Shown here: positions 1-64,000 of the stretch, piece after piece | Numbering within the stretch: the first letter of the stretch is position 1 | How the letters are laid out: every line of letters begins with the position of its first letter | NCBI GenBank assembly: GCA_009914755.4 | Contig: CP086569.2 | Location: 31,936,001 to 32,000,000 of the forward strand | DNA: 64,000 bases | From: the human T2T-CHM13v2.0 reference genome, Homo sapiens | Direction of reading: 5' to 3' | Position numbers and translations under genes: made by a program | Notes under the pieces: model-generated | Seen by the model: only the letters and a program-made list of their open reading frames with translations | Told to the model about the DNA's origin: nothing | Databases searched by the model: none

Positions 1-1533
1 ATAATAATATACAGTGTCATATATATAATATATATAACCCATGTATAATATTGTTTTACATCCTGCATCTTATGTTATTTATATTGTATAAAATATAATA
101 ATTGATAATATATAAGTTTTATAATTATACAATATGACATATAGTATATATTATAATTTATGACATATATAATATATGTTATATATCATATATAGAATAT
201 ATTATACGGTTAATATACGTATTAAATATATATTATACATTATATATATTATATATAATATATCTGTTATATATAATACCCATTATGCATAATATATATA
301 TTATGTCTATGTTATATATAGTATAAAACAACATATAATAATATATAATTGTATATATAAAATGCGACATATAATATATATTATATTTTATAACATATGC
401 AATATATATTATATATAATACGTTGTATGTATAATACCTATATTAAATATATATTATATGACTATGTTATTAATTATATGTCACATGTGTTATATATAAT
501 ATATTTTACATAGAATATACCGGTTACATACAATATATACTATGTTACCTATAATGTATAATTTATTACATGTAAAATAAAGAATGCAATATATTATGTA
601 AAATTTATAACATACAATATGTGGAATGTGATATATATAGCATATAATATATGATATATGATATACAATATATGATATATAACATACAATATATGATTCC
701 TAATATATATGGTATACAATATATATTTTATGATATGTATTCTCTATGTTTTATATTCTGTTATATATAACTATTTGAAATTATATATAACTGTATAATA
801 TTTTATTTAAATATGTAATATAATATATATAACTATATAATATATTATATATAACTATATATTATGTTATATATACTTTTATAACATAATTTACATAAAA
901 TATCATAATATAATATATATTATATTATTTCATATTACATAATATATATTACATATCACCCAATATAACTAACATACATAATATTATAATATAGATTATA
1001 TTGTGTTATATTAAATATCATATATATCATGTATCATATATTCTATAATATATATTACACATTATATAATATGTATGTTGTCTATTATGTGATATATATA
1101 ACTATATATATAATTATATTTTTATACATATAACTAGATAAACATGTAATTCTACATATTTTCATTTATAATATGTAGAATTATATAATCATATATAATT
1201 ATTTATATTGTATAAAAAATTTTATTATTATATAAATTATAATATATAAAAATTATAATATGTACTACAAATATATATATTATATATCATATATGATATA
1301 GTACCTTTGTTATATATCATAATACATATAAATGTGTATTATGTTATCTATAATTATATAATTTCATATATAAGATGTATAATATGTATCATATATTATA
1401 TATGTTATGTAATATATATAGTATATATAAGATGACACAGGATAAATATTATATACTATGACATATAAAATATATGAGGTTATATGTTACATATAAGGCA
1501 TAGCACATAACATGTAATATATATCATATATAA
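1..1533. repeat. Partial unit U0 (only the AT-rich segment; window begins about 18 bp into it)
   Basis: Aligns to 2415-3946 of the next unit (same motifs: acagtgtcatatatataatatatataacc ... catatataa before the poly-T). Confidence 0.9.
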
Positions 1534-1831
1534 TTTTTTTTTAGACAGAATCTTGTCCTGTTGCACAGGGTGGGGTACAATGGCGCCATCTTTGCTCACT
1601 GCAGCTTCTGCCTCACGGGTCCAAGCGATTGTCCCTCCTCAGCCTCCCAGGTAGCTGGGACTACACCACACTGGGACTACACCAGCTGCCACCATGCCTA
1701 GCTAATTTTTTGGATTTTTAGTAGTGACAGCGTTTCACTGTATTGGCCAGGATGTTCTTGATCTCTTCACCTTGTGATCCCCTTGCCTTGGCCTCCAAAT
1801 TTGCTGGGATTACAGGCCTGAGCCAAGATCC
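1534..1831 (-). mobile_element. Alu SINE, antisense, old AluJ/AluS-like, 5'-truncated (copy in U1)
   Basis: The + strand reads T9-agacagaatcttgtcctgttgcacagggtgg...cctcagcctcccaggtagctgggactac...ctagctaattttttggatttttagtagtgacag...ttggccaggatg...ctccaaatttgctgggattacaggcctgagcca, which is the reverse complement of the Alu consensus. It has CAAGCGATT and GTTGCAG (S/J state), not the AluY CACGCCATT/GCTTGCAG state. It carries a tandem duplication of about 15 bp (ctgggactacaccacactgggactacacc). The 5' GGCCGGGCGCGG end is missing. Confidence 0.9.
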
Positions 1832-2395
1832 ATATTTTTTAAATGAAAAAAAATTTCAAAGGTACTCTGCTTGGTACAATAATCAAATGTATAAACTGAG
1901 GAATAAAACATAACCATGAAACCTACTTATAACTGCATATGGAAAATACAGAGGATAATTTTTTAAATAACATATTTTGAAAGCCTTAACTAGTAATTTG
2001 AAGAGTTGGCATTTGAAAGGCCAGTATGAATATACCTTCAAAGCAGCAACACAGGTTCCCCATGAGAAAAAGCAAACACAGGGAAAATAAAAACACAAAG
2101 GTTCAATCTCTTCTGACCTTTGAAAGACACAGCACAGACAGTGGTCCTTAGGACGAAGAGCAGGAGACCCCTAATTCCGTCACCATGGCGATAGGGCATA
2201 AACATTGCTGGGTGAGGGCACAATCCACATTGTGAGGTCCAACTGCTGCCAGGAAGACAGGAGTGCTTTTACATAGACCGAAAGGTCATTGAAGGCTCAG
2301 AGTTTTGTTTCAAGAACTGAATCCCAAGCCCACACGTTATTAGGCTGCGCTTCTTAAAACAAGTTATGAGATGGGAAAAAGGGCACCCAAAAACA
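1832..2395. repeat. Unique (non-Alu, non-low-complexity) segment of the unit, about 565 bp, moderate GC; recurs in every unit immediately 3' (+ strand) of the Alu
   Basis: catattttttaaatgaaaaaaaatttcaaaggtactctgcttgg...gacacagcacagacagtggtccttaggacgaagagcaggagacccctaattccgtcaccatggcgatagggc...gctgcgcttcttaaaacaagttatgagatgggaaaaagggcacc. Origin unrecognised; it may be an old TE/LTR fragment. It contains the recurrent spurious minus-strand 61/71-aa frames. Confidence 0.7.
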
Positions 2396-61946: not shown

Positions 61947-62244
61947 TTTTTTTTTAGACAGAGTCTTGTCCTGTTGCACAGGGTGGAGTACAATGGCGCC
62001 ATCTTTGCTCACTGCAACATCTGCCTCACGGGTCCAAGCGATTGTCCTCCCTCAGCCTCCCAGGTAGCTGGGACTACACCACACTGGGACTACACCAGCT
62101 GCCACCATGCCTAGCTAATTTTTTGGATTTTTAGTAGTGACAGCGTTTCACTGTATTGGCCAGGATGGTCTTGATCTCTTCACCTTGTGATCCCCTTGCC
62201 TTGGCCTCCAAATTTGCTGGGATTACAGGCCTGAGCCAAGATCC
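61947..62244 (-). mobile_element. Alu (same ancestral copy, B-type), U26
   Basis: As above. Confidence 0.9.
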
Positions 62245-64000
62245 ATATTTTTTAAATGAAAAAAAATTTCAAAGGTACTCTGCTTGGTACAATAATCAAA
62301 TGTATAAACTGAGGAATAAAACATAACCATGAAACCTACTTATAACTGCATATGGAAAATACAGAGGATAATTTTTTAAATAACATATTTTGAAAGCCTT
62401 AACTAGTAATTTGAAGAGTTGGCATTTGAAAGGCCAGTATGAATATACCTTCAAAGCAGCAACACAGGTTCCCCATGAGAAAAAGCAAACTCAGGGAAAA
62501 TAAAACCACAAAGGTTCAATCTCTTCTGACCTTTGAAAGACACAGCACAGACAGTGGTCCTTAGGACGAAGAGCAGGAGACCTCTAATTCCGTCACCATG
62601 GCGATAGGGCATAAACATTGCTGGGTGAGGGCACAATCCACCTTGTGAGGTCCAACTGCTGTCAGGAAGACAGGAGTGCTTTTACATACACCGAAAGGTC
62701 ATTGAAGGCTCAGAGTTTTGTTTCAAGAACTGAATCCCAAGCCCACACGTTATTAGGCTGTGCTTCTTAAAACAAGTTATGAGATGGGGAAAAGGGCACT
62801 CACAAACATACGGATACATTATGTATATAATAATATACAGTATCATATTTATAATATATATAACCTATTTATAATATTGTTTTACATCCTGCATCTTATA
62901 TTACATATAGTATAAAATATAATAATTGATAATATATAAGTTTTATATTTCTACAATATGACATATAGTATATATTATAATTTATGTCATATATATGTTA
63001 TATATCATATATAGAATATATTATACGGTTAATATACGTACTAAATATAAATTATACATTATATATATTATATATAATATATCTGTTATATATAATACTC
63101 ATTATGCATAACATATATATTATGTCTATGTTATATATAGTATAACACAACATATAATAATATATAATTGTATATATAAAATGCGACATATTATATATAT
63201 TATATTTTATGACATATGTAATATATATTATATATTATATATAATACGTTGTATGTATACTACCTATATTAAATATATATTATATGACTACGTTATTAAT
63301 TACATGTCACATATGTTATATATTATATATTTTACATAGAATATACCGGTTACATACAATATATACTCTGTTACCTATAATGTATAATTTATTACATGTA
63401 AAATAAATAATGCAATATATTATGTATAATTTATAATATACAATATGTGGAATGTGATATATATAACATATAATATATGATATATGATATACAGTATATG
63501 ATATATAACATACAATATATGATACCTAATATATATGGTATACAATATATATTTTATGATATGTATTCTCTATGTTTTATATTCTGTTATATATAACTAT
63601 TTGAAATTATATATAACTGTATAATATTTTATGTAAATATGTAATATAATATATATAACCATATAATATATTATATATAACTATATATTATGTTATATAT
63701 ACTTTTATTACATAATTTGCATAAAATACCATAATATAATATATATTATATTATTTCATATTACATAATATATATTACATATCACCCAATATAAGTAACA
63801 TACATAATATTATAATATAGATTATATTATGTTATATTAAATATCATATATATCATGTATCATATATTCTATAATATATATTATACATTATATAATATGT
63901 ATGTTGTCTATTATGTGATATATATAACTATATATATATTTATATTATTATATATATAACTAGATAAACATGTAATTCTACATATTTTCATTTATAATAT
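61947..64000. repeat. Partial unit U26 (Alu + unique + about 1.2 kb of AT segment; truncated by window end)
   Basis: Alu poly-T 61947; window ends inside the AT-rich segment. Confidence 0.9.

What the first reader, a model, noticed from the sequence alone, without database searches (positions are those of the whole stretch)
1..64000. Entire window is one >64 kb composite macrosatellite (about 2.4 kb unit = Alu + unique + AT-rich), eukaryotic (primate), not a prokaryotic locus
Twenty-six complete head-to-tail units with period 2411-2422 bp fill the window, and it begins and ends inside a unit. A tandem unit this large that embeds a transposable element fits the composite satellite/macrosatellite class known from gapless human and primate assemblies. 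I cannot match the 2.4 kb unit to a named family from memory (D4Z4, DXZ4, RS447, SST1 and the 5S rDNA unit are different sizes or contents). It may therefore be an under-described array. Copy number of such arrays is usually polymorphic. The AT-rich part makes it hard to assemble from short reads.
Basis: seen in the sequence. Interest (0 to 1): 0.6.

Follow-up and report, generated by a model that had tools for sequence, protein, structure and literature searches.

The report
Human Y-type satellite DYZ2 (HSat1B) array
The whole window is a tandem array of the long-known human satellite DYZ2/HSat1B, the 2.4 kb "AT-rich + old Alu + HSATI" repeat that fills much of the Y-chromosome long-arm heterochromatin, so it is real but ordinary and already described.

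Summary
The window holds 26 complete head-to-tail units of 2411-2422 bp plus a 1,174-bp partial unit. All units have the same orientation and are 96-99.7% identical.

The suggestion that the array is unnamed or under-described is wrong. The unit matches the published description of human DYZ2 / HSat1B (Repbase/Dfam "HSATI"; Frommer 1984, GenBank X00470) on every feature I could test:
- The window's majority consensus is 2,420 bp and the modal unit is 2,413 bp. Both numbers are published for DYZ2.
- GC is 24.3% (published 24%), with 1 CpG per 148 bp (published 1 per 150).
- The unit has three parts: an AT-rich part (87% AT), a 291-bp 5'-truncated Alu about 18-20% diverged from AluY, and a 574-bp GC-richer part.
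- The published 'ACATACG' junction motif is present.
- A published 40-nt probe target that labels only Yq occurs once per unit (26 hits, 18 exact).
- In-silico HaeIII digestion gives one 2.14 kb fragment per unit.

An exact 61-mer from the unit also turns up in 17 unrelated "bacterial" assemblies on tiny contigs 97-99.96% identical to the window consensus. This is the known human HSat1B contamination pattern.

It is non-coding heterochromatin that evolves by local unequal exchange. The most likely location is Yq12. A smaller acrocentric short-arm or chr10 array cannot be excluded with these tools.

The parts
1..64000 (.). Uninterrupted tandem array of DYZ2/HSat1B units: 26 complete units plus a 1,174-bp partial unit, all in one orientation. 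The array runs off both ends of the window.
   Evidence: periodicity, unit boundaries, identity; all 26 probe-site hits are on the - strand.
1535..1825 (-). Alu subunit of the first unit, 291 bp. It lacks the first 12 nt of the Alu, has 18% substitutions plus 15 indel columns against AluY, and its poly-A tail reads as a T-run at 1534-1542 on the + strand. It recurs every ~2.4 kb.
   Evidence: local alignment to an AluY consensus recalled from memory: score 260 on the minus strand, 19 on the plus strand. (sub-threshold Rfam hit to the mir-1268 family at 1638-1704, inside the Alu). Published: Alu 290 +/- 2 bp, ~20% diverged, 5' truncated.
1826..2399 (+). GC-richer non-repeat part (the 'HSATI' portion), 574 bp, 39% GC, ending in the junction motif ACATACG (2393-2399).
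   Evidence: Published: HSATI 566 +/- 16 bp plus a 7-nt 'ACATACG' at the HSATI/AT-rich junction. The motif is present at 22 of 24 junctions listed and reads ACATAGG at the other two.
2400..3947 (+). AT-rich part of one unit, 1,548 bp, ~87% AT. It is built of degenerate short repeats (periods 7, 16, 22, 58 and ~230 bp) and many imperfect inverted repeats.
   Evidence: Published: extremely AT-rich region, >85% AT, mean 1,415 bp, variable in length, enriched in inverted and mirror repeats.
1801..1840 (-). 40-nt target of the published 'Y-chrom' padlock probe, spanning the Alu 5'-truncation point and the start of the HSATI part. It occurs once per unit: 26 sites, 18 exact, 6 with one mismatch, 2 with two.
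   Evidence: probe sequence, designed from Frommer 1984; it labelled only Yq. (26 matches, 0 expected by chance).
1429..13500 (.). Recent local block duplication. Units u1 and u2 are nearly identical to u4 and u5 (7 and 16 differences) at a lag of 3 units (7,248 bp), including a 1,344-bp exact run.
52180..61841 (.). More diverged end of the window (97.6-98.1% to consensus) with a two-unit pattern: u22 resembles u24 and u23 resembles u25. u23 and u25 share the same 2-mismatch variant of the probe site.

Best explanation
The window is a stretch of the human satellite DYZ2 (= HSat1B, Repbase/Dfam HSATI), most probably from the Yq12 heterochromatin of a Y chromosome. It is non-coding constitutive heterochromatin. 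One ancestral composite segment (HSATI part + one 5'-truncated old Alu + AT-rich repeat) was amplified head-to-tail. It is kept homogeneous by repeated local unequal exchange (sister-chromatid or intrachromatid), which duplicates and deletes blocks of one to a few units.

Shown here: the array; its three-part unit; the single origin of the Alu (same truncation point and same internal indels in all units); the absence of ORFs; and near-identical blocks at lags of 1-3 units. Taken from the literature: Yq12 location, hypermethylation, and polymorphism in array number and size. Inferred: the exchange mechanism, and Y rather than an acrocentric location.
For: (1) Period and consensus: units are 2411-2422 bp with a mode of 2,413, and the majority consensus is 2,420 bp. 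Hallast et al. report that 46.8% of DYZ2 units are 2,413 bp long and give a final consensus of 2,420 bp.
(2) Composition: GC 24.3% and 1 CpG per 148 bp, against 24% and 1 per 150 bp published.
(3) Parts: Alu 291 bp, 5'-truncated, 18% substituted plus indels; HSATI part 574 bp including ACATACG; AT-rich part 87% AT. Published values are Alu 290 +/- 2 bp at ~20% divergence, HSATI 566 +/- 16 bp plus the 7-nt motif, and >85% AT. The minus-strand order HSATI, Alu, AT-rich matches the RepeatMasker layout reported for GenBank X00470.1.
(4) Direct sequence link: the 40-nt target of a probe designed from Frommer's male-specific satellite I, which labelled only Yq in male metaphases, occurs once per unit. 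There are 26 hits, 18 exact, and 0 expected by chance.
(5) An exact 61-mer is present in 17 unrelated bacterial assemblies. Sixteen are contigs of 0.6-2.5 kb; the other is a 1,024-bp piece between N-gaps in a 5.16-Mb scaffold. The aligned pieces are 96.8-99.96% identical to the window consensus, and one 2,497-bp contig differs at a single base with no gap. The T2T-Y paper reports exactly this contamination for HSat1B.
(6) Homogeneity of 97.6-99.5% to consensus fits the published statement that most units are over 98% identical, with more divergence at the periphery.
(7) There is no ORF above 71 aa in a unit.
(8) Near-identical blocks at lags of 1-3 units and a 1,344-bp exact run at lag 7,248 fit the published model of local expansion and contraction by unequal exchange.
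Against: No human reference genome, Dfam library or X00470 sequence was available. Full-length identity to a named reference was therefore not measured directly and rests on published descriptors, one 40-nt published sequence and contaminant contigs. No DYZ1/HSat3 flank lies in the window, so the Yq12 location is not shown. HSat1B arrays also exist on the acrocentric short arms and chr10. Mean pairwise identity (97.7%) is slightly lower than the most homogeneous central Yq12 arrays, and the last nine units are 97.6-98.6% to consensus. Variants between units show no excess of CpG transitions (5 events at 32 sites, ratio 1.0), although the published hypermethylation would predict one; the numbers are small. 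The AluY consensus used for the divergence estimate was recalled from memory.
Confidence: 0.96

Rival explanations
1. The family is the same (HSat1B), but this array lies on an acrocentric short arm (chr13, 14, 15, 21 or 22) or on chr10 rather than on Yq12.
For: HSat1B/DYZ2 copies are reported on all acrocentric short arms and on chr10. The window has no DYZ1 flank. The units in the 3' third are about 2-2.4% from the consensus. The most proximal and distal Yq12 copies are said to resemble the acrocentric copies, so the divergence level does not discriminate.
Against: [quoted passage not shown] Abundance alone therefore favours Y strongly. Yq12 DYZ2 arrays are 11 kb to 2.2 Mb long, which easily accommodates more than 64 kb. 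The window's consensus has the length published for Yq12 (2,420 bp) and the modal unit length published for Yq12 (2,413 bp). It differs at 1 of 2,497 bases from a contaminant contig, which I infer reflects the most abundant human variant.
Confidence: 0.1
2. It is an orthologous or related HSATI/Alu/AT-rich array from a non-human ape.
For: A review of Babcock 2007 states that the three-part repeat occurs on autosomes of non-human primates. The tools hold no primate genomes to exclude this directly.
Against: The window consensus is 99.6-99.96% identical to many of the contaminant contigs from 17 unrelated bacterial sequencing projects. The only plausible common source for those is human DNA (inference). 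The published human 40-mer matches exactly in 18 of 26 units. Every human DYZ2 metric matches to within 1%. Large Y-linked amplification is reported as human-specific.
Confidence: 0.02
3. It is a previously undescribed composite macrosatellite.
Against: Every published defining descriptor of DYZ2/HSat1B that could be tested is met, including a sequence-level 40-nt match and the 7-nt junction motif.
Confidence: 0.01
4. The array length or internal order is partly an assembly artefact (collapsed, expanded or mis-ordered units), or the window comes from a non-human assembly contaminated with human DNA.
For: Satellites of this kind are error-prone to assemble. HSat1B is a documented contaminant. 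Two contaminant contigs, L003 and L016, are visibly mis-joined.
Against: The units are not identical copies. They carry a structured pattern of shared variants, block duplications and a divergence gradient, as expected of real long-read-resolved sequence. Contaminant contigs are 2.5 kb or shorter, not 64 kb. Either way the biological identity is unchanged.
Confidence: 0.05

Closest known systems
DYZ2 / HSat1B (Repbase/Dfam HSATI; GenBank X00470.1; Frommer, Prosser & Vincent 1984), human Yq12
   Same: The tandem period, the 2,420-bp consensus length and the 2,413-bp modal unit all match. So do the three parts, their sizes and their order; GC and CpG density; the 5'-truncated ~290-bp Alu at ~20% divergence; the ACATACG junction; the 40-nt Y-probe target; the level of homogeneity; and the local duplication pattern.
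   Different: Nothing tested differs. Full-length identity to a reference copy and chromosomal position were not tested. The 3' third of the window is a little more diverged (97.6-98.6% to consensus) and shows a two-unit pattern, which is within published variation (peripheral units and arrays are more diverged).
HSat1B arrays on acrocentric short arms (chr13/14/15/21/22) and chr10
   Same: Same family and same composite unit. The T2T-Y authors consider them derived from the Y-linked copies.
   Different: They are much smaller in total amount and form chromosome-specific clusters in the published Alu-subunit and DYZ2-consensus phylogenies. I could not test which cluster the window belongs to.
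HSAT1/Alu/AT-rich modules in the 22q11.2 low-copy repeats (PATRR22 / 'TBTA' translocation-breakpoint sequence)
   Same: They have the same three-part signature and about 85% identity to satellite I X00470. The AT-rich part is rich in imperfect inverted repeats here too.
   Different: Those are isolated or few-copy modules inside segmental duplications, more diverged, and known for palindrome-mediated translocation. The window is a long, homogeneous 2.4 kb tandem array.
DYZ1 / HSat3A6 (3.5-3.6 kb unit, Yq12)
   Same: It is the partner satellite that alternates with DYZ2 on Yq12 and is also a kb-scale tandem unit evolving by unequal exchange.
   Different: It is unrelated in sequence: CATTC-pentamer-derived, 38% GC, 1 CpG per 35 bp. 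None of it is present in the window.
HSat1A ('SAR', 42-bp AT-rich satellite)
   Same: It shares the classical 'satellite I' density fraction and extreme AT-richness.
   Different: It is a simple 42-bp repeat with no Alu and no 2.4 kb unit. The AT-rich part of the window has no dominant 42-bp array.

Membership tests
DYZ2 / HSat1B (HSATI) | Head-to-tail tandem repeat of ~2.4-2.5 kb; modal unit 2,413 bp; consensus 2,420 bp | tested here: met
   Units are 2411-2422 bp with a mode of 2,413 (6 of 25). The majority consensus is 2,420 bp.
DYZ2 / HSat1B (HSATI) | Three-part unit: extremely AT-rich region (>85% AT, ~1.4 kb, variable), one Alu, and a GC-richer HSATI part (566 +/- 16 bp) | tested here: met
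   AT-rich part 1,548 bp at 87% AT; Alu 291 bp; HSATI part 574 bp including the 7-nt junction motif. The order matches X00470.1 as reported.
DYZ2 / HSat1B (HSATI) | Single-origin Alu subunit, 5'-truncated, ~290 bp, ~20% diverged from AluY | tested here: met
   The alignment covers AluY positions 13-288, 291 bp in the unit, with 81.9% identity excluding 15 gap columns. The same truncation point occurs in all 26 units. Caveat: the AluY consensus was recalled from memory.
DYZ2 / HSat1B (HSATI) | Base composition 24% GC and about 1 CpG per 150 bp | tested here: met
   24.3% GC; 432 CpG in 64,000 bp, which is 1 per 148 bp.
DYZ2 / HSat1B (HSATI) | 7-nt 'ACATACG' at the junction of the HSATI part and the next AT-rich part | tested here: met
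   Present at 22 of 24 junctions listed, with ACATAGG at the other two.
DYZ2 / HSat1B (HSATI) | Contains the sequence of Frommer's male-specific satellite I (40-nt padlock target that labels only Yq) | tested here: met
   26 hits, one per unit, 18 exact, 0 expected by chance.
DYZ2 / HSat1B (HSATI) | Classical male-specific ~2.1 kb HaeIII fragment (feature recalled from memory, Cooke 1976; not found in the held library) | tested here: met
   In-silico HaeIII digestion gives one fragment of 2137-2148 bp per unit, 25 of 25. The literature basis is my own recollection; one search found no text stating it.
DYZ2 / HSat1B (HSATI) | Full-length sequence identity to a reference copy (Dfam HSATI, GenBank X00470.1, T2T-Y DYZ2 consensus) | not testable with these tools
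   No human genome, Dfam library or GenBank human records are held, and Frommer 1984 and Babcock 2007 are not in the library. Indirect evidence: contaminant contigs of the kind the T2T-Y paper assigns to HSat1B are 97-99.96% identical to the window consensus.
DYZ2 / HSat1B (HSATI) | Location in Yq12, in blocks alternating with DYZ1/HSat3 | not testable with these tools
   The array runs off both ends of the window and no DYZ1 sequence is present.
HSat1A (SAR) | Simple tandem repeat of a 42-bp AT-rich monomer | tested here: not met
   TRF finds only short, degenerate arrays of many periods (7, 16, 22, 58, 230 bp) inside the AT-rich part. The single 42-bp row listed has only 2.3 copies. The dominant period is 2.4 kb.
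22q11.2 PATRR/TBTA HSAT1-Alu-AT modules | Isolated or few-copy module within low-copy repeats, ~85% identical to satellite I | tested here: not met
   The window is a homogeneous array of more than 26 units. The published satellite I 40-mer matches exactly in 18 of 26 units, which is far closer than 85%.

The most novel reading that the evidence does not exclude
The array might not be on Yq12. It could be a large (>64 kb) HSat1B array at an acrocentric, chr10 or otherwise unreported location, or a structurally unusual haplotype. In that case the two-unit pattern and the divergence gradient at its 3' end would mark an array edge or a distinct subfamily.
Probability: 0.1. Interest if true: 0.2.

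Novelty: already known. Interest (0 to 1): 0.06.

Why it matters
It matters little as a discovery. DYZ2/HSat1B has been known since the 1970s-80s and is now resolved base by base in complete Y assemblies.

The practical value is for triage. A scan aimed at prokaryotic or viral novelty should recognise this sequence as human satellite. It should also be aware that the same repeat contaminates many bacterial assemblies: 17 species representatives were found here with a single 61-mer.

Tried and rejected
- Rfam search of two units: only sub-threshold hits to mir-1268 (33.9 bits against a gathering score of 83), lying inside the Alu. There was no SRP/7SL hit at E<=1, so Rfam did not confirm the Alu on its own, and I used a pairwise alignment instead.
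- CpG-decay test on variants between units: no enrichment (5 events at 32 CpG positions, ratio 1.0), and transversions outnumber transitions (215 to 161). These are small numbers, and the AT-rich alignment is noisy. I did not interpret the result.
- Literature: Frommer 1984 (PMC318713) and Babcock 2007 (PMC1832092) are not held. The search for DYZ2 primers returned mostly spurious matches. No held text states the 2.1 kb HaeIII fragment for DYZ2.
- Plasmid and phage collections: no match to a unit.
- Y versus acrocentric versus ape: the papers read give no sequence-level discriminators that I could apply.
- Other named macrosatellites (D4Z4, DXZ4, RS447, SST1, 5S rDNA): not pursued once the DYZ2 descriptors matched.
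Full report
**1. The observation**

The window is 24.3% GC. Its self-identity peaks sharply at lags of 2413 and 2420 bp (0.55 and 0.54, against a mean of 0.32 over all lags) and at their multiples.

Counting from position 1 there are 27 unit starts. In a second register, anchored at the end of the AT-rich part, 25 complete units align over 2,423 columns. 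Pairwise identity is 96.2-99.7% (mean 97.7%), and each unit is 97.6-99.5% identical to the window consensus.

The composition alternates between about 1.5 kb at ~13% GC and about 0.9 kb at 37-45% GC. Nothing interrupts the array and all units have the same orientation.

**2. Anatomy of the unit** (first unit, + strand)

- *Antisense Alu, 1535-1825.* Its T-run at 1534-1542 is the poly-A tail. It aligns to positions 13-288 of an AluY consensus that I recalled from memory, so it is 5'-truncated by 12 nt. It spans 291 bp, with 81.9% identity excluding 15 indel columns.
- *GC-richer non-repeat part, 1826-2399.* It is 574 bp at 39% GC and ends in ACATACG.
- *AT-rich part, 2400-3947.* It is 1,548 bp at about 87% AT. 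It consists of degenerate short repeats and many imperfect inverted repeats.

No ORF exceeds 71 aa. Rfam gives only a sub-threshold hit to the mir-1268 family, inside the Alu.

**3. What it is**

The literature describes this object exactly.

[quoted passage not shown] It reports most copies as over 98% identical, a total of 14 Mb in Yq12, and blocks of 20-1,200 kb alternating with DYZ1.

Hallast et al. (10.1101/2022.12.01.518658) give the following:
- A unit of about 2.4 kb, made of an AT-rich simple repeat, a 5'-truncated Alu and an HSATI part.
- 46.8% of units exactly 2,413 bp long, and a final consensus of 2,420 bp.
- A 7-nt 'ACATACG' at the HSATI/AT-rich junction.
- 24% GC and 1 CpG per 150 bp.
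- Alu 290 +/- 2 bp, HSATI 566 +/- 16 bp, AT-rich part averaging 1,415 bp.

The window gives the following:
- A modal unit of 2,413 bp and a consensus of 2,420 bp.
- ACATACG at 22 of 24 junctions listed.
- 24.3% GC and 1 CpG per 148 bp.
- Alu 291 bp and HSATI part 574 bp including the 7-mer.

[quoted passage not shown] They cite Frommer et al. [quoted passage not shown] The RepeatMasker layout reported for Frommer's GenBank X00470.1 is HSAT1, then Alu (287 bp), then an AT repeat. That is the order on the window's minus strand.

**4. Sequence-level links**

[quoted passage not shown] Its two arms define a 40-nt target. That 40-mer occurs once per unit in the window: 26 hits, 18 exact, and none expected by chance. 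It spans the junction between the truncated Alu 5' end and the HSATI part, which is a composite-specific junction.

*Contaminant contigs.* An exact 61-mer from the HSATI part occurs in 17 taxonomically unrelated bacterial species representatives, including Mycobacterium, Bifidobacterium, Streptomyces and Alcanivorax. Sixteen of the 17 are contigs of 0.6-2.5 kb. The aligned pieces are 96.8-99.96% identical to the window consensus, and one 2,497-bp contig differs at a single base with no gap. The one hit inside a 5.16-Mb scaffold is a 1,024-bp piece bracketed by 100-N gaps in a >70% GC genome. The T2T-Y paper reports this phenomenon specifically for HSat1B and HSat3. The only plausible common source is human DNA. 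This argues for a human rather than another primate origin (inference).

*HaeIII digest.* An in-silico HaeIII digest gives one 2137-2148 bp fragment per unit. This fits the classical 2.1 kb male-specific HaeIII band as I remember it. I could not find that statement in the held library.

**5. How it works**

This is non-coding satellite heterochromatin.

All units share the same Alu truncation point and the same internal Alu indels. That shows a single founding composite which was later amplified.

The variant pattern within the window is structured:
- u1 and u2 are nearly identical to u4 and u5 (7 and 16 differences) at a lag of 3 units, with a 1,344-bp exact run.
- u6, u7 and u9 differ from one another at about 10 positions.
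- u22 resembles u24, and u23 resembles u25, at a lag of 2 units.
- Divergence from the consensus rises from 0.5-1.2% in units 1-14 to 1.4-2.4% in units 17-25.

This is the signature of repeated local duplication and deletion of one to a few units. It agrees with the published interpretation of expansion and contraction by unequal exchange, with more diverged units towards array and region edges. The exchange mechanism itself is inferred. Hypermethylation, size polymorphism and the roughly 1:1 DYZ1:DYZ2 unit ratio are literature statements and were not tested here. One weak discordance is that variants between units show no excess of CpG transitions, but the numbers are small.

**6. What remains open**

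No human reference, Dfam library or X00470 record is available in these tools, and two key older papers are not held. Full-length identity to a named reference and the chromosomal position therefore could not be measured.

HSat1B also occurs in smaller amounts on the acrocentric short arms and chr10. On abundance (14 Mb on the Y against "smaller amounts" elsewhere), array size, and the match to the Yq12 consensus length and modal unit length, I put Yq12 at roughly 85-90% and another human location at about 10%. A non-human ape origin is very unlikely, at about 2%.

**7. Verdict**

This is DYZ2/HSat1B, which is already known, so the interest is low. A unit has no match in the plasmid or phage collections, consistent with a eukaryotic origin.

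Noticed in passing
L001-L017 (genome-contig hits); e.g. L001 = LZSC01000004.1 Mycobacterium sp., L004 = NZ_QLZA01000025.1 Bifidobacterium tibiigranuli: Seventeen GTDB species-representative 'bacterial' assemblies carry pieces of this human satellite. Sixteen hits are whole contigs of 0.6-2.5 kb, and the aligned pieces are 96.8-99.96% identical to the window consensus. Several are RefSeq (NZ_) records. This is human contamination of the kind the T2T-Y paper reports.
   Followed up: yes
L006:5897-6920 (NZ_HF570958.1, Nostocoides japonicum T1-X7, 5.16 Mb scaffold): A 1,024-bp piece of the human satellite sits between two 100-N gaps inside a >70% GC actinobacterial scaffold. A contaminant contig was therefore concatenated into the chromosome-scale record.
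   Followed up: yes
L003:1-1122 (WVXJ01000174.1, Armatimonadota MAG) and L016:1-1543 (NZ_QVRA01000080.1, Sphingobium terrigena): Both contaminant contigs consist of two pieces of the unit joined out of order (mis-assembly of the repeat). The main piece of L003 is only 96.8% identical to the window consensus, so it may come from a more diverged (peripheral or acrocentric) copy.
   Followed up: partly
window 1429-13500: Three-unit-lag duplication. Units u1 and u2 nearly equal u4 and u5 (7 and 16 differences), with a 1,344-bp exact run at lag 7,248 starting at 3288. The intervening u3 is closest to u11 rather than to u6.
   Followed up: partly
window 40098-61841: The 3' third of the window is more diverged (97.6-98.6% to consensus) and shows a two-unit alternation in both length (2418/2415, then 2413/2418) and sequence (u22 resembles u24; u23 resembles u25). 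The units at 54965 and 59796 share the same 2-mismatch variant of the probe site. This may be a dimeric higher-order pattern or the approach to an array edge.
   Followed up: partly
window 26530-26604 and 28950-29024: Two adjacent units carry ACATAGG instead of ACATACG at the HSATI/AT-rich junction. The change removes a CpG by a C-to-G transversion and was evidently propagated by a one-unit duplication.
   Followed up: no
whole window (alignment of 25 units): Among 376 variant events between units, transversions outnumber transitions (215 to 161), and CpG sites are no more variable than other sites (ratio 1.0). This is unexpected for hypermethylated DNA. It may reflect alignment noise in the AT-rich part, gene-conversion dynamics or small numbers.
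   Followed up: partly
window 1638-1704 and 4051-4117 (- strand): A sub-threshold Rfam match to the mir-1268 precursor family (33.9 bits, gathering score 83, E=0.0012) lies inside the Alu. It overlaps an internal Alu duplication (GGTGTAGTCCCAG repeated) that all units appear to share. The match is most simply explained by the Alu itself; there is no evidence here of a miRNA gene.
   Followed up: no
window 2400-3947 (AT-rich part of a unit): There are 172 imperfect inverted-repeat pairs of 20 nt or more, with arms up to 103 nt at 70-82% complementarity. This is consistent with the reported enrichment of inverted and mirror repeats in HSat1B and with the kinship to the palindromic AT-rich repeats of 22q11. 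No comparison with shuffled sequence was made.
   Followed up: no
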